A stretch of DNA of 64,000 bases from Dehalococcoidia bacterium (GCA_045562555.1 JBJKVO010000001.1:262089-326088), one strand, 5' to 3'; counted from the first letter of the stretch, positions 1,136 through 39,386 are shown. Notes: generated by a model from the letters alone, not told the origin. Made by a program: numbers and translations.

Positions 1136-2239
1136 ATGGAAGAAGTTATAAAGGGAGCCGTACAAGCGCTGAAAGAAGGTGAAAAGTGTGTGCTCGTTAC
1201 AGTAGTTCGAACTAAAGGTTCTACTCCACAAAAATCCGGAGCAATGTTACTAGTTAAGGAAGATGGTAGTGGTATAGGGACTTTAGGTGGAGGATGTGTG
1301 GAAGGGGACATTTGGTTCGCTGCCACAGAGATACTTCAGAAAAAGACAGGACCAGAATTTAAAGACTACTATTTGAATGAAGACATAGCGGCTCGCGATG
1401 GACTAGTGTGTGGGGGCTCGATGTACTTTTTCCTTGATCCATTACATGACAAACAAGATTTTCTAGGCATAGGCGAAAAACTGATTGATGCCTACAGTGG
1501 AAATTCTTCTATCACCATGGCGACTGTGGTTCGGAGTGACAGGGATGAATTAGTTCCGGGCTCCAAATTGATTATTGATAGTAACTCGTCCGTTTCTGGC
1601 ACGCTTGGGACGCAAGCTGTTGATGGTATCGCGACTGAAATAGGAAAAGATATAGCGGAAGTTGGTCAGATTCATAACTTAAACGTGGATGATAATGTTG
1701 AAGTGTTTATGGAAGGATTTACTATACCCCCCACATTATGCATGGTCGGAGGCGGGCATGTTGGTAAAGCTACAGCAGATTTGGCTGAACAGATTGGGTT
1801 CAACGTCATTATTGTGGATGATAGAGAGGAATTTTGTAATATCGATAGATTCCCGTATGCTAGCCAGCTAATACAGACCTCCTTTTCAAATTGGTCAGAT
1901 CAATTAGATATTCACACAAACACATTTGTCGTAGTTGCAACTAGAGGTCATAATTATGATGATCTTGCTCTTAGATCTGCGTTAAACACTAAAGCGAGAT
2001 ATATAGGCCTTTTGGGCAGTAAACGTAAAACAATCATGATTTATAAATTGCTAGCATCTGATGGCATACCTTTGGATAGACTGAATCAGGTTTATGCTCC
2101 TGTAGGACTGGATATCGGTGCACTTACTCCTGAAGAAATAGCCTTAAGCATCATGTCAGAATTGGTAATGGTTAGAAGAGGTGGTGGTGGCAGTCCTATG
2201 GCTATGGACAAAAAATACTTAGAAAATTTGCTTTCCTGA
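1136..2239 (+). CDS. XdhC/CoxI-family molybdoenzyme maturation protein
   Basis: 367 aa. N-terminal VVRTKGSTPQKSGAMLLV..GTLGGGCVE and C-terminal Rossmann-like MVGGGHVGKA...VVATRGHNYD are typical of XdhC. Confidence 0.8.
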   Translation: MEEVIKGAVQALKEGEKCVLVTVVRTKGSTPQKSGAMLLVKEDGSGIGTLGGGCVEGDIWFAATEILQKKTGPEFKDYYLNEDIAARDGLVCGGSMYFFLDPLHDKQDFLGIGEKLIDAYSGNSSITMATVVRSDRDELVPGSKLIIDSNSSVSGTLGTQAVDGIATEIGKDIAEVGQIHNLNVDDNVEVFMEGFTIPPTLCMVGGGHVGKATADLAEQIGFNVIIVDDREEFCNIDRFPYASQLIQTSFSNWSDQLDIHTNTFVVVATRGHNYDDLALRSALNTKARYIGLLGSKRKTIMIYKLLASDGIPLDRLNQVYAPVGLDIGALTPEEIALSIMSELVMVRRGGGGSPMAMDKKYLENLLS

Positions 2240-2242
2240 GAA

Positions 2243-2854
2243 ATGGCCACTTCGAGAAGAATTGCAGCACTTCTTTTGAGTGCTGGGTTATCTAGTAGGA
2301 TGCACCGACATAAAGCTTTGGTGGATTGGGGAGGTCGCTCCCTCTTGCGCTACCAAGTTGATACATTACTACAAGCAGGTTTGGATCAAATAGTGGTTGT
2401 GTTGGGTGCAAATCAAAGTAATATCAGACCTGAAATTGATAATTTAGATAATATTACCGTTGTTGTTAATCAGGATTTTGAAAACGGAAAGACAACATCT
2501 ATAACAACGGGAGCGGAGGCTTTACAAGAACTTGCGCCAGATGACCTGATGATATTGAATGTAGATCAACCTCGATCTGCAGAGATAATTCAAGATATTG
2601 TTCGTTTTCACAATCATTCTAAAAAAGGCATCACTATCCCGAGATTTAAGTCTAAGGGGGGGCATCCAATTGTATTAAGCGCATCATATCTTGATGATCT
2701 CAAACTTGTTAAGGAGAGTACTTTAGGATTAAAGCAATTAATGCTGGATAATGCAGATGATATTGGTGATTTTTTTGCAGATAGTGAAGAGATATTAATC
2801 GATATGAATACTGAAGCTGAATATAATTCGGCGAAGCTTTTTTTTGGGATATAA
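2243..2854 (+). CDS. MobA-like NTP transferase, probable molybdenum cofactor cytidylyltransferase (MocA-type)
   Basis: 203 aa with an AALLLSAGLSSRM nucleotide-binding N-terminus. It starts 4 nt after the xdhC-like stop, so the two are probably an operon. Confidence 0.7.
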   Translation: MATSRRIAALLLSAGLSSRMHRHKALVDWGGRSLLRYQVDTLLQAGLDQIVVVLGANQSNIRPEIDNLDNITVVVNQDFENGKTTSITTGAEALQELAPDDLMILNVDQPRSAEIIQDIVRFHNHSKKGITIPRFKSKGGHPIVLSASYLDDLKLVKESTLGLKQLMLDNADDIGDFFADSEEILIDMNTEAEYNSAKLFFGI

Positions 2855-15161: not shown

Positions 15162-16103
15162 TTGATTCTTGTTACTGGAGCCACAGGGTTTATAGGTAGT
15201 GCAGTTGTCAAACAACTAAGTGACCAAGGTGTAGAATTTAAATGCTTGGTTCGTACCCCCGGTAACGAGAATCGGATTCAAACTTTTAGCCCAGAAATCC
15301 ATTACGGGGATTTACTTAACCGGCGTAGTCTTAACCATGTCTTAGCAGGAACAGACACAGTAATAAATGTTGCTGGAACCCTACCTTTCGGGGATAATTC
15401 TGAAGGATATCGCAGGAAAAATGTAGGTTCTGCTGTAAATCTTGTGGAAGCAGGAGAAGACGCAGGGGTTAAGAAAATAATTCATGTCAGCGCAGTAGGG
15501 AGTACAGAGAATAATTCGAATCCGTTTCTTAGAAGTAAGTATCTCTCAGAAAACGTGATTATCCGGAGTGCGATAAATCATACAATATTGAGATTACCAC
15601 ATGTTTTTGGTCCGAGAGACTCTTTCACAAATCATTGTGCCTCACTGATGAGAGTTTTACCTTGTAAGTTGATTTATGGCGATCCAAGGTGTGTTCTCCA
15701 ACCTATGCACGTTTCAGATGTGGCGTATTGCATCGTGAGATCAGCTACTGGTGACGATATGTCTGGAAAAATCATAGACTTAGTGGGTACCGAGTCAATT
15801 TCTTATTCGGATTTATTTACGACGATCAGAAACCGTTTCTCAAGTAATTTGATTCCGTATTGCCCTACACTTGAAGTACCAGATTTTGCGGCTAAAATAT
15901 TTGCCTCTTTATGGTCCGACTTTAGCCCGCTGAGTTTCTCTTTTGGACAATACCTTAGGTCGAACATGATCTCATCAGACAGCTCAGTAGCGGACTTATT
16001 TGATTTCGAGCCACGGTTACTTTTCAATAATATCCAGCATGTGCAAAGAATTAAATATAAAACAGCACTCAGAGTATTATTTGGAGATAAAAATCGGTGG
16101 TGA
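15162..16103 (+). CDS. NAD(P)-binding SDR-family (atypical, NmrA/NDUFA9-like) protein
   Basis: ILVTGATGFIGSAVV Rossmann motif. TTG start with GGGAG 6 nt upstream. Confidence 0.7.
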   Translation: MILVTGATGFIGSAVVKQLSDQGVEFKCLVRTPGNENRIQTFSPEIHYGDLLNRRSLNHVLAGTDTVINVAGTLPFGDNSEGYRRKNVGSAVNLVEAGEDAGVKKIIHVSAVGSTENNSNPFLRSKYLSENVIIRSAINHTILRLPHVFGPRDSFTNHCASLMRVLPCKLIYGDPRCVLQPMHVSDVAYCIVRSATGDDMSGKIIDLVGTESISYSDLFTTIRNRFSSNLIPYCPTLEVPDFAAKIFASLWSDFSPLSFSFGQYLRSNMISSDSSVADLFDFEPRLLFNNIQHVQRIKYKTALRVLFGDKNRW

Positions 16104-16116
16104 ATGGTTGTCTCAG

Positions 16117-17472
16117 ATGAATTACAAGAACGCTTTGGAAAAATTGATGTCTCTTATAGATTTAGAAAGAATCGAATTTTCAGGCCCCCGGCAAAAAGCA
16201 ATTTATGACCTCTCGCGGATTCAAAATTTCTTGAATTATATCGGGAATCCCCATCTGGACGTTCCTTGCATCCATGTTGCAGGAACGAAAGGGAAAGGAA
16301 GTGTTTCAGCTATTTGCGAATCCGTATTGAATGAATCAGGGTTCAAGACAGGTTTTTTCTCATCTCCTCATATTCATTCCTTTACTGAACGTATCAGGAT
16401 TAATGGTGAACCAATAAGTAAACTGAAATTTTCTGAATATTTTCATTGTTTATGGAGTCATCATGAAACCTGGACTAAAGAAGTTTCAGGAGCAAGACTG
16501 ACTTTGTTTGAATATATTACGGCCTTGGCTTTCTATATATTTGAGAAAGAATCTGTAGACATAAGTGTCATAGAGGTTGGCTTAGGAGGCCGTCTGGACG
16601 CCACAAACGTAGTCATACCGGAGGTGTCAGCTATCACTGCATTGGGTTATGACCATATGAATATTTTAGGTTCCGACATAGAGTCAATCACTAAAGAAAA
16701 AGCAGGTATCATAAAACCGCATGTCCCTGTAGTCGTTTCCCATCAATCATATGATGTGATTGATATTATCCAGTCGGTTTGCGCCGCCAATAATTCGAAT
16801 TTGATAGATACGGATGAAAATTTTTGCTATTCGTTAATCAGAATTGAAAATCACAGGCAATGTATTTTTGTTACCAGCCCATCCTTTTCAGGAGAATTAA
16901 ATACTGCGCTATTAGGTGCCCATCAAGCCCAGAATGTATTAACCGCATTAGGTGTGATTCAAGAACTCAAAAGAAAGGATTGGATTATTTCCGAAGAGCA
17001 TATTAAACAAGGCGTTTATTCGGTTTCATGGCCTTGCAGGATGGAGATTATCGAATCAGAATCTCAAACTGTAGTATTGGACGGCGCGCACACCTATGAA
17101 TCTATTCAATTAGTTATGGAATCAATACAGGAATTATTTCAATACAATAAATTAGGTATCTTGCTTGGCTTGTCAAAAGATAAGGAAATAGACAAGATAT
17201 GCGAATTACTTAGTAGATCAACTGCTGATCTGATTTTATTAATCAAGAGTAGACACCCTAAAGCAATGGATCAAAAGGAAATACTTGAGTACTTTACTGA
17301 AAATAATAATACTGTAAAAAATGCGTCTTCTATATTTGAAGCCATATCAACCGCTAGAAAAGAATTGGGACCAGAGGCTCTGATACTGTCTATAGGGTCA
17401 TTATTTTCATCAGCTGAGGTGAGAGAATATCTGTTGGGAATAGATCCAGAACTTTATCAGGCTATCGTGTGA
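16117..17472 (+). CDS. folC: bifunctional folylpolyglutamate synthase/dihydrofolate synthase
   Basis: HVAGTKGKGSV P-loop and GLGGRLDATNV. I place the start at ATG 16117 (MNYKNALEKL...). The ORF-track start at 16000 would overlap the SDR gene. Confidence 0.85.
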   Translation: MNYKNALEKLMSLIDLERIEFSGPRQKAIYDLSRIQNFLNYIGNPHLDVPCIHVAGTKGKGSVSAICESVLNESGFKTGFFSSPHIHSFTERIRINGEPISKLKFSEYFHCLWSHHETWTKEVSGARLTLFEYITALAFYIFEKESVDISVIEVGLGGRLDATNVVIPEVSAITALGYDHMNILGSDIESITKEKAGIIKPHVPVVVSHQSYDVIDIIQSVCAANNSNLIDTDENFCYSLIRIENHRQCIFVTSPSFSGELNTALLGAHQAQNVLTALGVIQELKRKDWIISEEHIKQGVYSVSWPCRMEIIESESQTVVLDGAHTYESIQLVMESIQELFQYNKLGILLGLSKDKEIDKICELLSRSTADLILLIKSRHPKAMDQKEILEYFTENNNTVKNASSIFEAISTARKELGPEALILSIGSLFSSAEVREYLLGIDPELYQAIV

Positions 17473-17490
17473 TACAAGGAGAAAAATGAA

Positions 17491-18732
17491 GTGCAAACGC
17501 AAAGAGTAGTAATAACAGGTTTGGGAGCGGTAAGTCCTAATGGGATTACTGTAAAAGAGTTTTGGAACAGTCTGATTAACGGAAAATCAGGAATTGGCCC
17601 AATGACTCTTTGTGATCCATCCGGATACACTTGTCGAATAGCTGGCGAAATTCTAGACTTCGACCCTTCTGTGGCGATTGACTTTAAAGAATCCAGAAGA
17701 ATGGCAAGATTTTCACAATTAGCTGTAGTGGCAGGAAAAGAAGCCTTAATCAATTCAGGATTAAATCTAGAGGGAATAGATTCTTACCGAGTTGGAGTGA
17801 TCCTAGGCAATGGCAATGGAGGATTTCCAACCTTAGAAGAAAACAGTAGAGTTCTTGCATCTCGTGGAGGTATGAAAATGTCTCCCTTTTTCTTCCCTAT
17901 GATATTACCGAACATGGCAACCGCCAACTTGAGCAGATTCTTGGGAGCTCAAGGATATAGTTCTACAGCCGTTACAGCTTGTGCTGCTTCTAATCAAGCT
18001 ATTGGAGAAGCTTTTAACGTGATACGTCACGGTATGGCAGATGTAATGTTTACAGGAGGCACTGAAGCGGGGATTAGTCAATTGGGGTTGGGGGGGTTTG
18101 CTGTAATGAAAGCACTAACCAATCAGAATTCTGACCCAATAAAAGCTAGCAAACCCTTCGATAACAACCGGGATGGATTTGTTCCTGCAGAAGGATCTGG
18201 AATCATTGTGTTGGAAGAACTAAAACATGCACTTAGTAGAGGAGCTAATATTTTGGCTGAAATTAAAGGTTTTGGTTGCACTTCTGATGCATCACATCTT
18301 GTCCAGCCTAAAGAAGATGGGTCTTCTGCTTGCAAAGCTATAGAATTAGCTCTCGGAGACGCAGAAATTTCCAAAGAAAGCGTGGATTACATAAATGCTC
18401 ATGGCACGTCTACTCCATTGAATGATTTAGTTGAAACAAGGGCTATTAAAAGAGCGTTTGGTGATTACGCATATAAAATTCCTATCAGTTCAACAAAGTC
18501 CATGATAGGGCATTCTTTGGGTGCTTCAGGTTCATTGGAAGCAATAGCATGTATTAATTCTATAATTCATGACAAGGTGCATCCAACTATCAATTATGAA
18601 CATCCAGATCCTGAATGCGACTTAGACTACGTGCCTAACAATGCTAGGTCAGCATCAGTTAATATCGCATTATCTAACGCATTTGGATTCGGAGGCCAGA
18701 ACGCTTGTGTGGTATTTTCTGGTTACGAATAA
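17491..18732 (+). CDS. fabF: beta-ketoacyl-ACP synthase II (paralogue 2)
   Basis: 413 aa. VTACAASNQAIG, NAHGTSTPLND, SSTKSMIGHSLGASG, FGFGGQN. GTG start. Confidence 0.9.
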   Translation: MQTQRVVITGLGAVSPNGITVKEFWNSLINGKSGIGPMTLCDPSGYTCRIAGEILDFDPSVAIDFKESRRMARFSQLAVVAGKEALINSGLNLEGIDSYRVGVILGNGNGGFPTLEENSRVLASRGGMKMSPFFFPMILPNMATANLSRFLGAQGYSSTAVTACAASNQAIGEAFNVIRHGMADVMFTGGTEAGISQLGLGGFAVMKALTNQNSDPIKASKPFDNNRDGFVPAEGSGIIVLEELKHALSRGANILAEIKGFGCTSDASHLVQPKEDGSSACKAIELALGDAEISKESVDYINAHGTSTPLNDLVETRAIKRAFGDYAYKIPISSTKSMIGHSLGASGSLEAIACINSIIHDKVHPTINYEHPDPECDLDYVPNNARSASVNIALSNAFGFGGQNACVVFSGYE

Positions 18733-35251: not shown

Positions 35252-36076
35252 ATGGGGTTAGCAGATTTACATCTTCACACAACCGAATCTGATGGGAGGT
35301 TGAGTGTAACAGCGTTAATCGATGTTGTTGCTTCAAGTGGAGCGAAAGTTTTCTCTATTACTGATCATGATACCACTAATGGATTGGATAAAGCTTTTGA
35401 TTATCTAAAGCTTTATCCAGAGCTTAAATTGGTTCCTGGGATTGAACTGAGTGCTGATATCGAGAACGATGAAATCCATATGTTGGGATATTTTATAGAC
35501 TATCATCAAATAGCTTTTCAAGATAAATTAAGTGCATTCAGAGACGGCCGAAAAATTAGAGCTAAAATGATGATTGAAAAATTATCCCACCTTGGTATGG
35601 ATATTACGTGGGATAGAGTGCAAGAAATAGCGGGAGAAGGAACAGTGGGGCGACCTCATATAGCTCTTGCTCTGGTAGAAGCAGGATACTTCAAAGTCCC
35701 TAAAGAAGCTTTTGCCAATCACTTGAATCGAACTGGACTCGCGTATGCGGAAGTTCCCAAAATATCCCCTCAAGAAGCAATACAGCTAATCAAATCGGTA
35801 GGAGGTGTTGCTGTATTAGCCCACCCGTATGAGATTGTTGATATGACTAAGTGGGTAAAAATACTAAAAGAAGATGGACTTGACGGAATTGAAGTGCATT
35901 ATGGTTCGTATGACTCGAATACAATTGAACATTTGTTGAGGATAAGTAAAGCGTATGACTTGATACCTGCAGGAGGTAGCGATTTTCACGGATTGGGTAA
36001 TCCTGGAGAAATATTGCCTGGTAGTGTAGGTACTCCACTAGAAACTTTTGAACGACTTGAACGTTTGGCTATTTGA
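35252..36076 (+). CDS. PHP-domain metal-dependent phosphoesterase (TrpH/YciV-like)
   Basis: DLHLHTTESDG N-terminus, ITDHDT, GGSDFHG. Confidence 0.8.
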   Translation: MGLADLHLHTTESDGRLSVTALIDVVASSGAKVFSITDHDTTNGLDKAFDYLKLYPELKLVPGIELSADIENDEIHMLGYFIDYHQIAFQDKLSAFRDGRKIRAKMMIEKLSHLGMDITWDRVQEIAGEGTVGRPHIALALVEAGYFKVPKEAFANHLNRTGLAYAEVPKISPQEAIQLIKSVGGVAVLAHPYEIVDMTKWVKILKEDGLDGIEVHYGSYDSNTIEHLLRISKAYDLIPAGGSDFHGLGNPGEILPGSVGTPLETFERLERLAI

Positions 36077-36080
36077 TTTA

Positions 36081-36737
36081 ATGGAAGTTTATGGATTCTA
36101 TTTGTTATTTGGTACTTTATTCTGGGTAATAGGCTCTATTCCTTCAGGATATTTGATTGTTCGTTTGATTGAAGGAAAGGATGTTTTTCTGGCGGGTAAT
36201 GGGAATCCTGGCCTGAATAATATATATGATAATTTCGGTGCACAGCTAACGGTGATGTTAGGTATTAGTGATCTAATTGTTAAAGTATTAATTCCAAGGT
36301 TTGTTTTGTTCGCAGCGTCCTCTTATCAAATTATTCCCCCAAATGATGAATGGGTTGTTTTGTATGGGATACTGTGCGTGCTGATTGGCAATGGATGGTC
36401 AATGTTTAGTAAATTTAAGGGAGGAAAAGGAGTTTATATACTCTTTACCTCCTTAATGTTTCTTAGCCCATCTAACTGGATCTGGGTTCTTTTAATTCCA
36501 TTGTTTTCTAAGATATTCAAAATTGATTCCGCTCCGATTACTCTGCTGGCTCTTGTTCCTTTACTAATGTTTTATTGGCGAGATAGTAACGCGTTGATTA
36601 TTAGTATAGGTTTGATCGGAGTTATTCTACTGAAACGAGTATTCAGTTCTAGTATTCAAACAACAACCAATAATAAACTTCTAGTGTTGTTGAATAGACT
36701 CTTGTATGATCGGGATTCTAGTCATAGGTCCTACTAG
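36081..36737 (+). CDS. PlsY-family (acyl-phosphate:glycerol-3-phosphate acyltransferase-like) membrane protein, divergent paralogue A
   Basis: GSIPSGYLIV...AGNGNPGLNNIY and GNGWSMFSKFKGGKGV align with the PlsY signature blocks. ATG 36081 is preferred over TTG 36048. Confidence 0.6.
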   Translation: MEVYGFYLLFGTLFWVIGSIPSGYLIVRLIEGKDVFLAGNGNPGLNNIYDNFGAQLTVMLGISDLIVKVLIPRFVLFAASSYQIIPPNDEWVVLYGILCVLIGNGWSMFSKFKGGKGVYILFTSLMFLSPSNWIWVLLIPLFSKIFKIDSAPITLLALVPLLMFYWRDSNALIISIGLIGVILLKRVFSSSIQTTTNNKLLVLLNRLLYDRDSSHRSY

Positions 36738-37215: not shown

Positions 37216-38307
37216 CTATTCGTTGTTGGTTAGTAATTTAAGATCGTCTGCTAATTTGGTGACTTCGGCAGACTCTGATTGCGGTTGATCTGTCACATTT
37301 TGCTTAGTTCTCAAGAGGCCTTCAATTTCTTGCATTACTATAGGGTTGTCTTTTAAGAAACTTTTTGCTGCTTCTCGCCCTTGACCTAACTTGGTCTCTT
37401 GATATGAATAGAATGCGCCTGACTTTTTAATGAGTCCTTCTGTTACCCCTAGTTCTATCAAATCGCCTGTTTTACTGATTCCTGTACCAAACATGATGTC
37501 GAATTCTGCAACTTTAAACGGAGCAGCTACCTTGTTTTTGACGACTCTTGCTCGTACGCGATTTCCGATAATTTCGGAGCCTTGCTTGATGGATTCTGCT
37601 CTTCTTAGATCAATTCTAACTGAGCTATAGAACTTGAGAGCTCTGCCTCCAGGGGTTACTTCAGGACTGCCATAATAAACTCCGACTTTTTCTCGTAATT
37701 GGTTTATAAAAACTACTGCTGTGTTGGATTTATTGATGGAACTTGTTAACTTCCGCAATGCCTGAGACATGAGTCTCGCTTGGAGACCCACATGAGTATC
37801 CCCTATTTCACCGTCTATTTCTGCTTGTGGTACCAGTGCTGCAACGCTATCGATCACTAAGCTGTCTATAGCGCCACTTGTCACGAGTTGTTCAGTGATA
37901 TCTAGAGCCTGTTCCCCACTATCTGGTTGGGCTATTAGAAGGTCTTTTAAGTTCAGTCCACAGCGACCAGCATATGCTGGGTCAAAAGCATGTTCTGCAT
38001 CTATGTATGCAGCAACTCCGCCAGCTCTTTGGGTTTCCGCCATGAAATGCACTGCCAAGGTTGATTTCCCAGCTGATTCAGCGCCGTAAATTTCTGTAAC
38101 TCTCCCTCGCGGTAACCCTCCAACCCCTAAAGCAAGGTCTAGGGTTAATGACCCAGTTGGAATGGCATGAGTTTCTACCTTGTCCGCTTTATCTCCCAGG
38201 CGCATGATTGCGCCTTTTCCGTGGTCTTTTTCTATACTGGAGATCGCAATATCCAATGCCGAAGTTTTCTCTGAAGTTTTCTCTGAAGTTTCGTTTCCTC
38301 GTTGCAT
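37216..38307 (-). CDS. recA: recombinase RecA
   Basis: [11 protein letters not shown] Walker [20 protein letters not shown], and the rest of the canonical sequence. Confidence 0.97.
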
Positions 38308-38343
38308 TAAGTCCTCTCGTTTAATATGATTTACTTATAGAAT

Positions 38344-38357
38344 AGTACAGATGTTCT
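38344..38357. promoter_or_regulatory. SOS (LexA) box 1 upstream of recA
   Basis: AGTACAGATGTTCT, a variant of GAAC-N4-GTTC. It overlaps a candidate recA promoter on the minus strand (TTTACA-17-TATTCT). Confidence 0.55.
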
Positions 38358-38376
38358 AGTTTGTAAAGGGTTTATT

Positions 38377-38390
38377 AGAACGGATGTTTG
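38377..38390. promoter_or_regulatory. SOS (LexA) box 2 upstream of recA
   Basis: AGAACGGATGTTTG, the same AG(A/T)AC-N4-GTT(T/C) pattern as the box at lexA. Confidence 0.5.
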
Positions 38391-38408
38391 AGATTCAAAC
38401 TTGAATCG

Positions 38409-38645
38409 TTAAAAGTCTCAATATCCGCCTTTGTATCCTATAGTGACCGCTCCGTTTTCCACGATTACTGGCGTAATCCTTTCCCCATCGGTCAGTTTAA
38501 CGAGTTCAGGGATTTGCTCTGGTTGCTTAGCAAGATCTATTTCCGTATACGGTACCTTGCTCCTACGATAGTCTGCTTTGGCTGCAGCGGAAAAAGCACA
38601 GTCTGGATGTGTGTAAATTAGAATGTCTCCTGTTGCTTCTGTCAT
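38409..38645 (-). CDS. glutaredoxin-like small thioredoxin-fold protein. The conventional ORF ends at TGA 38420-38418. Possible Sec read-through to TAA 38411-38409.
   Basis: ILIYTHPDCAFSAAAK...ITPVIVENGAVTIGYKGGY is Grx/NrdH-like with a CxxS motif. GAGGAG RBS. The sequence ends TAT TGA GAC TTT TAA (see finding). Confidence 0.6.
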
Positions 38646-38750
38646 TAGTTGCTCCTCAGGTAATATGAATAGTTAAATTCTACTACAAGGGAAAATCTTT
38701 GAAATAGGGGTTAACGACACATGTTTCGTATAAAGTTAATTTTGATAAAC

Positions 38751-39386
38751 TTAATATTCAGTTATGGATTCGATTGGAACTTCTAGAGATAGAGATTTTT
38801 GAATTTTGACCTTCTTGTACAAGGCATGGATGATTATGCTTAGTGATAGGAAGCTTAGGCCTATAGTGATTGTCCCGGGATAAACACCAGATCTTCCGAG
38901 TACTAGGATAGCAATGGTGCAAACAAATAGGCCTATTGAAGTTCGGCTATGCATCCTACTGCACATCAGAATGAATATGATGCCTAGAAGCATTGAGATC
39001 ACTGCAATAGATGGTACCAGCATAAATATGATTCCTATCATGCTAGCCATTCCATCTCCCCCTTGAAACTTTGTGAAAACAGAATGCCAGTGTCCAAGTA
39101 TGGCGGCATAAGCGGATAGTAGAGTCACGGCGTCAGGGAGATTGAAATAAATAGGAATTGCGACAGCGAGTGCCCCTTTTAAAATATCGATGGTCATCAC
39201 TAGCACTCCTCTGGCTTTGCCAATACTCCGAAAGACATTCGAGGTTCCTGCGGAACGTGTCCCAACTTTGAAAATATCTATACCTTTACGTTTGCTGAGT
39301 ATGAATGCTGCAGGTATAGATCCTAACAAGTAAGCTATGATTACGCATATGGATGTAGTAGTGACAAGAAGGGTCAAATCGTTCAT
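38751..39386 (-). CDS. PlsY-family membrane protein, divergent paralogue B
   Basis: LLGSIPAAFILSKRKGIDIFKVGTRSAGTSNVFR and GHWHSVFTKFQGGDGMAS align with the PlsY signature blocks. Confidence 0.6.
   Translation of the reverse strand: MNDLTLLVTTTSICVIIAYLLGSIPAAFILSKRKGIDIFKVGTRSAGTSNVFRSIGKARGVLVMTIDILKGALAVAIPIYFNLPDAVTLLSAYAAILGHWHSVFTKFQGGDGMASMIGIIFMLVPSIAVISMLLGIIFILMCSRMHSRTSIGLFVCTIAILVLGRSGVYPGTITIGLSFLSLSIIIHALYKKVKIQKSLSLEVPIESITEY

What the first reader, a model, noticed from the sequence alone, without database searches (positions are those of the whole stretch)
38392..38645. Glutaredoxin-like ORF stops at TGA followed by exactly two codons and TAA: candidate C-terminal U-x-x-stop selenoprotein
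The 75-aa thioredoxin-fold ORF has only a single-Cys redox motif (C-A-F-S). On the minus strand it ends ...GGC GGA TAT TGA GAC TTT TAA (TGA = 38420-38418, TAA = 38411-38409). If the TGA is read as selenocysteine, the product ends G-G-Y-U-D-F.

I recall an NCBI-named family of small glutaredoxin-like (seleno)proteins ('Uxx-star': Sec or Cys, two residues, stop) with exactly this architecture.

A hairpin GAUUCA-AGUU-UGAAUC (38407-38392) begins after 10 intervening nt. There are 16 nt between the UGA and a G/U-containing apical loop. That sits at the short end of the geometry usually quoted for bacterial SECIS elements.

TGA is an ordinary stop elsewhere in this window (for example the xdhC-like gene and folC), so this would be local recoding. 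A C-terminal Sec could form a selenenylsulfide with the lone Cys.
Basis: partly seen in the sequence, partly recalled or inferred. Interest (0 to 1): 0.7.

Follow-up and report, generated by a model that had tools for sequence, protein, structure and literature searches.

The report
Known C-terminal selenocysteine glutaredoxin-like protein

Summary
A minus-strand ORF (38645-38418) ends TAT TGA GAC TTT TAA, and a 6-bp hairpin with an AGUU loop follows (38407-38392). The ORF scores above the curated cut-off of NCBIfam NF041211, "UXX-star (seleno)protein family 2", and covers the whole profile only when read through the TGA. The identical protein is already in NCBI under that name (MFL2644340.1, deposited as the truncated 75-aa form).

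In 80 Dehalococcoidia/SAR202 species, 80/80 orthologues keep the TGA. All 79 scorable ones keep exactly two codons (Asp/Glu-Phe) that vary only at wobble positions, then a stop. A hairpin follows, with a covarying stem, an N-G-U-N loop, and 16-20 nt between UGA and loop in 74 of 79. Natural relatives end Cys-x-x-stop at the aligned position. TGA is an ordinary stop elsewhere in the window.

Not shown:
- No selA, selB, selD or tRNA-Sec was found in the roughly 84 kb of this genome that could be reached, which is too little to count as evidence of absence.
- Actual selenium insertion is untested.
- The proposed Cys16-Sec76 selenenylsulfide is untested.
- The window's own hairpin is energetically weak.

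Verdict: already known, and correctly recognised. The conserved position directly upstream of recA, with LexA-box-like motifs between the two genes, is a side observation.

The parts
38409..38645 (-). Full recoded coding sequence: 78 codons (MTEATGD...GYKGGY-U-D-F) plus the TAA stop
   Evidence: sequence, ORF; the NF041211 profile is covered 1-71/71 only with the 3-residue extension (120.1 bits).
38652..38657 (-). Shine-Dalgarno-like GAGGAG, 6 nt upstream of the ATG
   Evidence: Read directly. Its function is inferred.
38589..38600 (-). Monothiol active-site motif Cys16-Ala-Phe-Ser19, holding the only Cys in the protein
   Evidence: HPDC..S is invariant in the family alignments.
38418..38420 (-). 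In-frame TGA, the proposed Sec76 codon
   Evidence: TGA at this column in 80/80 species loci. Cys at the aligned column in natural relatives.
38412..38417 (-). Two translated codons after the TGA: GAC TTT (Asp77-Phe78)
   Evidence: positions +3, +4, +6 and +7 are invariant, +5 takes all four bases and +8 is C or T. This is D/E-F in 79/79 loci, the pattern of selection on the protein.
38409..38411 (-). True stop codon TAA
   Evidence: An in-frame stop at exactly this position in 79/79 scorable loci. Among the 74 tabulated: TAG 37, TAA 28, TGA 9.
38392..38407 (-). SECIS-like hairpin lying wholly in the 3' UTR: stem GAUUCA/UGAAUC (6 bp), loop AGUU
   Evidence: Geometry is shared by the family. 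Covariation is seen in 6 of 7 stem pairs in 39 other species. Compensatory changes occur in the closest relatives L020 and L012/L093. It is weak in energy, -5.2 kcal/mol.

Best explanation
The gene encodes a 78-residue NrdH/glutaredoxin-like protein of the curated UXX-star (seleno)protein family 2. The UGA at 38420-38418 is recoded as selenocysteine. A small stem-loop starts 10 nt after the UGA and therefore lies entirely beyond the real stop codon. It presents a G-U in its apical loop 16 nt from the UGA, and this is taken to recruit SelB carrying Sec-tRNA(Sec) while the ribosome sits on the UGA. Translation then adds Asp-Phe and stops at TAA.

The product has one Cys (Cys16, in a C-x-x-S motif at the start of helix 1) and Sec76 on a short tail that follows strand 4 in place of the usual last helix. 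The most likely chemistry is a Cys16-Sec76 selenenylsulfide/selenolthiol redox couple, which would make the protein a small thiol-selenol oxidoreductase.

Shown here: family membership, conservation of the TGA-x-x-stop architecture, protein-level selection on the two codons after the TGA, the covarying hairpin, Sec/Cys pairing, and the fold.

Inferred: that Sec is really inserted, that SelB binds this hairpin, and the selenenylsulfide.

The confidence of 0.78 is for the redox-couple reading as stated. Confidence that the UGA is recoded as Sec at all, whatever the chemistry, is about 0.9.
For: - Family: NF041211 scores 111.8 and 120.1 bits against a cut-off of 100, with full profile coverage only when read through the TGA. 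Pfam Glutaredoxin also matches.
- The identical protein is already named "UXX-star (seleno)protein family 2" by NCBI, MFL2644340.1. The family is listed as a selenoprotein in review PMC13188914, citing Haft and Tolstoy 2025.
- Architecture: 80/80 species keep the TGA and 79/79 keep [D/E]-F-stop. Three-base periodicity of conservation continues through the two post-TGA codons and collapses after the final stop.
- Hairpin geometry across the 79 sequences (78 species plus the window): stem of 5-8 bp in most, N-G-U-N loop in about 70 of 79 (AGUU, the window's loop, in 28), and 16-20 nt from UGA to loop in 74 of 79.
- Covariation: 6 of 7 stem pairs show compensatory changes, 86.8% of cells are paired, and the score is 0.463 against at most 0.154 for slid controls and 0/500 shuffles.
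- In the window's own AT-rich sublineage the stem changes in a compensatory way: GATTCA/TGAATC, GACTCA/TGAGTC, GATTCG/CGAATC.
- Natural Cys forms end C-x-x-stop at the aligned column. Two of them score 102.4 bits on NF041211.
- TGA is an ordinary stop for 12 of 47 long ORFs in the window, and it is the terminal stop after x-x in 9 of the 74 tabulated loci (73 homologues plus the window). That excludes codon reassignment.
- The hairpin meets the published bacterial SECIS rules for loop, stem and spacing.
- The AlphaFold model of a Cys-form relative has a confident thioredoxin-fold core that ends after strand 4, with no last helix. The nearest solved folds are NrdH-redoxins, cGrx1 and BC3987.
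- Established knowledge of the glutaredoxin fold: the segment just after strand 4 lines the active-site groove next to the catalytic Cys and the cis-Pro.
Against: - No selA, selB, selD or tRNA-Sec was found in the window, in 10 kb beyond each end, or in the other loci fetched. This covers only about 84 kb of this genome, so it is uninformative rather than negative.
- The window's hairpin is weak. It folds at -5.2 kcal/mol alone and -6.3 from the UGA onward, above the -7.5 threshold of the published model. It reaches -12.0 only with a lower stem that is not conserved in relative L091.
- A covariance model built from GC-rich relatives placed its best window hit at the right spot (E about 0.035), but it aligned only the UGA-GAN-UUY-UAA string and skipped the AT-rich stem.
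- No Rfam family matches.
- No proteomic or 75Se evidence exists for any member, as far as the held literature shows.
Confidence: 0.78

Rival explanations
1. Sec is inserted as above, but Cys16 and Sec76 act as a ligand pair for a metal or metalloid (for example Hg or As), or for another unknown substrate, and not as a redox couple.
For: [quoted passage not shown] A flexible C-terminal selenolate next to a single thiol would be a good soft-metal site. No thioredoxin reductase, peroxiredoxin or Msr partner is encoded next to the gene.
Against: No metal-resistance or transport genes are adjacent. The neighbours are plsY and recA in most species. The fold and the C-x-x-S motif are those of monothiol redoxins. 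Nothing here tests metal binding.
Confidence: 0.15
2. The TGA is a genuine stop and the protein is 75 residues long. The conserved downstream sequence and hairpin would then be a regulatory or processing element of the transcript running into recA.
For: Public gene calls, including the NCBI record, end at the TGA. recA follows on the same strand in 73 of 79 species. The Sec machinery has not been demonstrated for this genome. The window's hairpin is weak.
Against: An RNA element would not leave exactly the two wobble positions free while fixing GA-/TT- and an in-frame stop at +3 codons in 79/79 species. Relatives encode Cys-x-x-stop at the aligned column. The curated profile extends through those three residues. 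The hairpin has no U-tract, and the terminator scan finds nothing there.
Confidence: 0.04
3. The UGA is read through by a standard amino acid (Trp or Cys by near-cognate decoding) and not by selenocysteine.
For: One distant family-1 representative has Trp (GGT-W-GV) at the aligned position. Read-through would equally explain the coding-type conservation of the next two codons.
Against: The element conserved at a fixed distance has the loop G-U and the spacing typical of SelB-dependent bacterial SECIS elements. Sec/Cys alternation at a redox-type position is the hallmark of selenoproteins. Leaky read-through would give mostly truncated product and would not need a covarying hairpin.
Confidence: 0.03

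Closest known systems
UXX-star (seleno)protein family 2 (NCBIfam NF041211; Haft and Tolstoy 2025, as listed in PMC13188914)
   Same: Everything tested matches: HMM score above the cut-off, glutaredoxin-like fold, Sec followed by two residues and a stop, and Cys-form relatives. The identical sequence already carries this name in NCBI.
   Different: Nothing that defines the family differs. The public record holds the 75-aa truncated form without U-D-F.
UXX-star selenoprotein family 1 / "Distant Grx-like protein 1" (NF041114)
   Same: Same small glutaredoxin-like scaffold and the same C-terminal U-x-x-stop.
   Different: Family 1 is listed with a U-x-x-T active site and two Sec residues. The window protein has C-x-x-S and a single Sec, and scores 62-65 bits against a cut-off of 72.
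NrdH-redoxin / YruB-type glutaredoxin-like proteins (TIGR02194, TIGR02196; PDB 1h75, 4fiw, 4hs1, 3zij)
   Same: The nearest solved folds, at 1.4-2.1 A over about 66 residues. Same size class and the same b1-a1-b2-a2-b3-b4 core.
   Different: Those proteins have a dithiol C-x-x-C site and a C-terminal helix. Here the site is C-x-x-S, there is no last helix, and a Sec tail takes its place. HMM scores are far below the cut-offs: 27.5 against 85.75 and 36.3 against 88.55.
Bacterial SECIS of E. coli fdhF type / bSECISearch consensus (PMC13188914, Fig. 2)
   Same: A small apical loop with G then U, a 4-16 bp stem, and a fixed short distance from the UGA. Nine relatives have the loop GGUC, which from my own knowledge is also the fdhF loop.
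   Different: The element lies entirely after the stop codon and not inside the coding sequence. The window's copy is below the energy threshold.
Mammalian thioredoxin reductase C-terminus (Gly-Cys-Sec-Gly-stop), expressed in E. coli with an engineered bacterial-type SECIS placed after the stop (Arner et al. 1999, cited in PMC2268967)
   Same: Sec lies within three residues of the C-terminus on a flexible tail and forms a selenenylsulfide. The E. coli expression system shows that a bacterial SECIS can work from untranslated sequence just after the stop (for the citation; the mechanistic detail is from my own knowledge).
   Different: An unrelated protein fold. There the partner Cys is adjacent in sequence, whereas here it would be 60 residues away in the active site. 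Here the arrangement is natural and not engineered.

Membership tests
UXX-star (seleno)protein family 2 (NF041211) | Whole-protein HMM score at or above the curated cut-off (100 bits) | tested here: met
   111.8 bits for the 75-aa form. 120.1 bits for the 78-aa read-through form, with the profile covered 1-71/71.
UXX-star (seleno)protein family 2 (NF041211) | Sec (TGA) or Cys followed by exactly two residues and then a stop | tested here: met
   TGA GAC TTT TAA. The same architecture is found in 79/79 scorable species loci.
UXX-star (seleno)protein family 2 (NF041211) | Glutaredoxin-like (thioredoxin-fold) domain | tested here: met
   Pfam PF00462 scores 33.3 bits against 22.9. The AlphaFold core has pLDDT of about 90. 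Foldseek hits are NrdH, Grx and BC3987.
Selenoprotein (general computational criteria) | Cys-containing homologues with Cys aligned to the TGA | tested here: met
   P0139 (...GCAF) and P0143 lie within NF041211 at 102.4 bits. P0146, P0243, P0244, P0237, P0181, P0183 and P0200 are in the wider Uxx-star family. P0087 has TGT at the codon.
Selenoprotein (general computational criteria) | Conservation of coding sequence downstream of the TGA | tested here: met
   Only two codons are available. Both show variation at the wobble position only, across 79 species, and the signal is lost right after the stop.
Selenoprotein (general computational criteria) | Sec-decoding machinery (selA, selB, selC, selD) in the same genome | not testable with these tools
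   None was found in the window, in 10 kb beyond each end, or in the other fetched loci. Only about 84 kb of this genome could be reached, and other contigs of the MAGs cannot be fetched.
Selenoprotein (general computational criteria) | Physical incorporation of selenium at the UGA position | not testable with these tools
   This needs proteomics or 75Se labelling.
Bacterial SECIS (bSECISearch consensus, PMC13188914 Fig. 2) | [quoted passage not shown] | tested here: met
   The loop is AGUU. N-G-U-N occurs in about 70 of the 79 sequences examined.
Bacterial SECIS (bSECISearch consensus, PMC13188914 Fig. 2) | Upper stem of 4-16 bp, supported by covariation | tested here: met
   6 bp in the window. 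6 of 7 pairs covary in 39 species. Compensatory changes are seen in the closest relatives.
Bacterial SECIS (bSECISearch consensus, PMC13188914 Fig. 2) | 16-37 nt between the UGA and the apical loop | tested here: met
   16 nt in the window, at the lower limit. 16-20 nt in 74 of the 79 sequences.
Bacterial SECIS (bSECISearch consensus, PMC13188914 Fig. 2) | Folding energy of -7.5 kcal/mol or lower | tested here: inconclusive
   -5.2 kcal/mol for the hairpin and -6.3 from the UGA to +45 both fail. -12.0 with a lower stem that includes upstream codons passes, but that stem is not conserved in L091. 75 of the 79 sequences pass; the window is among the four that do not.
NrdH-redoxin (TIGR02194) / classical glutaredoxin | HMM score above the cut-off, a C-x-x-C dithiol site and a C-terminal helix | tested here: not met
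   27.5 bits against 85.75. The motif is C-A-F-S. No helix follows strand 4 in the model.

The most novel reading that the evidence does not exclude
The gene's position is not accidental. In 73 of 79 SAR202/Dehalococcoidia species it sits directly upstream of recA on the same strand. In the marine, lower-GC lineages, LexA-box-like GAAC-N4-GTAC motifs lie between the hairpin and recA. The selenoprotein might therefore be functionally tied to the DNA-damage or oxidative-stress response. The 3'-UTR hairpin, with SelB bound to it, might also influence read-through transcription or translation of recA, which would link selenium status to SOS gene expression.
Probability: 0.07. Interest if true: 0.55.

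Novelty: already known. Interest (0 to 1): 0.2.

Why it matters
For the scan, this is a correct catch of a real recoding event that ordinary gene callers miss. Every public copy of this protein, including the NCBI record that bears the family name, is truncated at the TGA and lacks its probable catalytic residue. For biology, it adds nothing categorically new, because the family, its U-x-x-stop architecture and its selenoprotein status are already curated and published.

Two modest points of value remain:
- The 80-species comparison gives clean evidence of natural bacterial SECIS elements that lie wholly in the 3' UTR at a fixed distance of 16-20 nt.
- It indicates that SAR202, an abundant deep-ocean lineage, very probably uses selenocysteine.

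The protein's function is still unknown and has never been tested experimentally.

Tried and rejected
1. The minimum-energy fold (-15.6 kcal/mol, z = -3.7) pairs UUGAGA with UCUCAA and GGCGGAU with AUCCGUU. I rejected it as the functional element. Relative L091 breaks it, other species do not share it, and its 3' arm overlaps a LexA-box-like motif.
2. RNAalifold on a plain MAFFT alignment of 79 downstream regions found almost nothing. The columns were not structural, because tetraloop and triloop registers differ by one base and the AT-rich sequences were misplaced. I replaced this with per-sequence hairpin finding and a clean 39-sequence alignment.
3. The held-out covariance-model test was only partly informative. 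The best hit in 64 kb is at the right place, but the AT-rich stem was not aligned.
4. The Rfam scan returned only noise. The terminator scan found nothing at the hairpin.
5. Sec machinery was not found by any route: ARAGORN on the window and on all loci, tblastn with E. coli SelD, SelA and SelB written from memory (used only as probes), inspection of all window ORFs of at least 250 aa, and 10 kb beyond each window end.
6. Other selenoprotein genes in the window: two long TGA-spanning frames (1115-2854 and 15991-18732) are simply adjacent genes in the same frame.
I used the natural Cys form P0087 instead. Its coordinates are not exposed, so the Cys-Sec distance was not measured.
8. The primary paper (Haft and Tolstoy 2025) is not in the held library. 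Searches for the Sec trait in SAR202 or Chloroflexi gave nothing useful.
9. Codon reassignment (genetic code 4 or 25) is rejected, because TGA ends 12 of 47 long ORFs in the window and 9 of the 74 tabulated genes after the x-x codons.

Full report
**1. The observation**

The ORF starts at ATG 38645-38643, six bases after a GAGGAG. It encodes 75 residues with a single cysteine in C16-A-F-S19 (38600-38589). It ends GGC GGA TAT TGA (38420-38418) GAC TTT TAA (38411-38409). One C follows, then GATTCA-AGTT-TGAATC (38407-38392). There are 10 nt between the UGA and the stem and 16 nt between the UGA and the loop. The ORF listing gives the same 75-aa ORF.

The xdhC-like and folC-like ORFs end in TGA, as do 12 of 47 long ORFs in the window.

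As a chance baseline, the window's six frames hold 226 stop-to-stop stretches of at least 60 codons. Of these, 11 show stop-x-x-stop and 6 show a SECIS-like hairpin at 16-20 nt. Only this locus shows both, with about 0.3 expected by chance. Taken alone, the window is suggestive and not conclusive.

**2. Family membership**

| Model | Description | Score (bits) | Cut-off |
|---|---|---|---|
| NF041211 | UXX-star (seleno)protein family 2, equivalog | 111.8 (75 aa); 120.1 (read-through, Sec as Cys) | 100 |
| NF041212 | parent Uxx-star subfamily | 101 | 66 |
| NF041114 | UXX-star family 1 | 62-65 | 72 |
| TIGR02194 | NrdH | 27.5 | 85.75 |
| TIGR02196 | YruB | 36 | 88.55 |

Only the read-through form covers the NF041211 profile end to end (1-71 of 71). 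Family 3 and classical glutaredoxin models also fall below their cut-offs. Pfam sees a Glutaredoxin domain.

The identical 75-aa sequence is in the public collection. It was seen on 87 contigs from marine metagenomes and in two NCBI MAGs. NCBI names it [quoted passage not shown], accession MFL2644340.1. [quoted passage not shown] That primary paper is not in the held library.

**3. Comparative test of the recoding**

Of the 120 closest public proteins, 118 end at ...KGG[Y/T/N/F], which is exactly where the window ORF is cut.

I fetched the DNA of orthologues from 80 different Dehalococcoidia, SAR202 and Chloroflexota species.
- All 80 have TGA at this codon.
- All 79 that are not cut by a contig end then have GA[N] TT[Y] (Asp or Glu, then Phe) and a stop. 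Among the 74 tabulated (73 species loci plus the window), the stop is TAG in 37, TAA in 28 and TGA in 9.
- Base by base, positions +3, +4, +6 and +7 after the TGA are invariant. Position +5 takes all four bases and position +8 is C or T. Conservation collapses immediately after the final stop.

That is the signature of translated sequence under selection on the protein, and not of an RNA motif. TGA serving as the final stop in nine of the genes, and as an ordinary stop in the window, excludes a reassigned genetic code.

**4. The hairpin**

The minimum-energy fold of the region is a longer stem that buries the UGA (-15.6 kcal/mol, z = -3.7). It is not the conserved element. Relative L091 (88% protein identity) breaks it while keeping the small hairpin, and other species do not share it.

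- The stem is 5-8 bp in most species.
- The loop is N-G-U-N in about 70 of 79 sequences: AGUU 28, GUU 15, GGUC 9, GGUU 7.
- There are 16-20 nt from UGA to loop in 74 of 79.

The window's copy (6 bp, AGUU, 16 nt) lies inside this distribution.

On a clean alignment of 39 tetraloop sequences that excludes the window and its two nearest relatives, 6 of 7 stem pairs show compensatory changes. 86.8% of cells are paired. The covariation score is 0.463, against at most 0.154 when partners are slid, and 0 of 500 shuffles reach it.

Within the window's AT-rich sublineage the stem changes in a compensatory way:

| Locus | 5' arm | 3' arm |
|---|---|---|
| window | GATTCA | TGAATC |
| L020 | GACTCA | TGAGTC |
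| L012/L093 | GATTCG | CGAATC |

A covariance model built without the window put its best hit in all 64 kb at 38420-38402 (13.7 bits, E about 0.035). It aligned only the UGA-GAN-UUY-UAA string and skipped the AT-rich stem, so I count it as partial support only.

Against the published bacterial SECIS model, the window's element passes on loop, stem and spacing but is weak on energy. It folds at -5.2 kcal/mol for the hairpin and -6.3 from the UGA onward, against a threshold of -7.5. It reaches -12.0 only with the non-conserved lower stem. 75 of the 79 sequences pass the threshold, and the window is one of the four that do not. No Rfam family matches. The hairpin has no U-tract, and the terminator scan finds nothing there.

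**5. Sec/Cys pairs**

An exhaustive HMMER search of 1.84 billion representatives returned 137 relatives. Most stop at the residue before the would-be Sec. Several are natural Cys forms that end Cys-x-x-stop at the aligned column: P0139 ...GCAF, P0146 ...GCSF, P0243 and P0244 ...GCAF, P0237 ...YCAV, P0181 ...TCGV, P0183 ...YCGI and P0200 ...GCVE.

P0139 and P0143 themselves reach the family-2 cut-off at 102.4 bits.

A closer relative, P0087, has TGT at the codon. It keeps the E-F codons and a hairpin at the same spacing, but the stop position reads TTA. This is a single contig, so it is either a recent conversion or a sequencing error.

**6. Fold and likely chemistry**

An AlphaFold model of the Cys form P0087, built with the family alignment, has a confident core (pLDDT about 90 over residues 10-78). 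Its topology is b1-a1-b2-a2-b3-b4, and no helix follows strand 4. The nearest solved structures are NrdH-redoxins, clostridial cGrx1 and BC3987, at 1.4-2.1 A over about 66 residues. Sequence search of the PDB gives only weak glutaredoxin hits that stop before the tail.

In the glutaredoxin fold, the segment after strand 4 lines the active-site groove beside the catalytic Cys and the cis-Pro; this is established knowledge. A G-G-Y-U-D-F tail there could plausibly reach Cys16, which fits a selenenylsulfide/selenolthiol couple. This remains an inference.

**7. What could not be shown**

There is no tRNA-Sec and no selA, selB or selD in the window, in 10 kb beyond each end, or in the other loci fetched. 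Only about 84 kb of this genome was reachable, so this is not evidence of absence. Nor is there any experimental evidence for Sec insertion in this family in the literature I could reach.

**8. Verdict**

The locus is a member of an already curated and published selenoprotein family, and this exact protein already carries the family name. The novelty rating is therefore "already known", and interest is low.

What remains of value is a clean comparative demonstration of a natural bacterial SECIS lying wholly in the 3' UTR. It is also worth noting that all public copies are truncated at the TGA.

A side observation may deserve a follow-up. The gene sits directly upstream of recA in 73 of 79 species. 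LexA-box-like GAAC-N4-GTAC motifs occur in the spacer in 15 of 79 species, against 0.7 expected. In the window these motifs are at 38389-38378 and 38356-38345. The second lies inside a promoter-like site.

Noticed in passing
window 38389-38378 and 38356-38345 (minus strand); promoter-like site 38367-38339: There are two LexA/Cheo-box-like motifs (AAACATCCGTTC and GAACATCTGTAC) between the hairpin and recA. The second lies between the -35 and -10 hexamers of a promoter-like site. GAAC-N4-GT[AT]C occurs within 200 nt after the stop in 15 of 79 species, against 0.7 expected. lexA itself is encoded in the window at about 45.7-46.3 kb (Pfam calls in the syntenic loci). These are probably the SOS boxes of recA.
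   Followed up: partly
window 37216-39386; loci L011-L090: The Uxx-star gene lies directly upstream of recA on the same strand in 73 of 79 species, and downstream of a plsY-like gene in 61. The reason for this tight linkage to recA is unknown.
   Followed up: partly
window 38418-38645; NCBI MFL2644340.1: Every public copy of this protein, including the NCBI record that is named as a UXX-star family member, is the 75-aa form cut at the TGA. The U-D-F end is missing from the databases.
   Followed up: yes
window 38370-38435 (minus strand): A longer minimum-energy stem (-15.6 kcal/mol, z = -3.7) pairs the last codons and the UGA with sequence 3' of the hairpin. It is not conserved in L091 or in other species, and its 3' arm overlaps the first LexA-like box. 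It is probably incidental, though it could add stability to the weak AT-rich hairpin in this population.
   Followed up: partly
L096 3220-3270 (protein P0087): A relative has TGT (Cys) in place of TGA. It retains the E-F codons and the hairpin, but TTA stands where the stop should be, which gives a 44-residue disordered extension. It is on a single contig, so it is a recent Sec-to-Cys conversion with a damaged stop, a pseudogene, or a sequencing error.
   Followed up: partly
protein P0207: A family-1 representative (102 bits on NF041114) has Trp at the Sec/Cys column (...GGT-W-GV). This suggests a TGA-to-TGG change, or a lineage that reads UGA as Trp.
   Followed up: no
window 36048-36737 (+) and 38751-39386 (-): Two plsY-like (G3P_acyltransf) paralogues flank the Uxx-star/recA pair on opposite strands.
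   Followed up: no
window 1136-2854 (+) and about 10 kb upstream (L097): An XdhC/CoxI-like gene is followed, in the same frame after a TGA, by a MobA-like nucleotidyltransferase gene. This is a molybdenum-cofactor maturation pair. Cobalamin-biosynthesis genes (CbiG, precorrin methylases) and gyrA lie just beyond the window start. The TGA between the two genes is an ordinary stop.
   Followed up: partly
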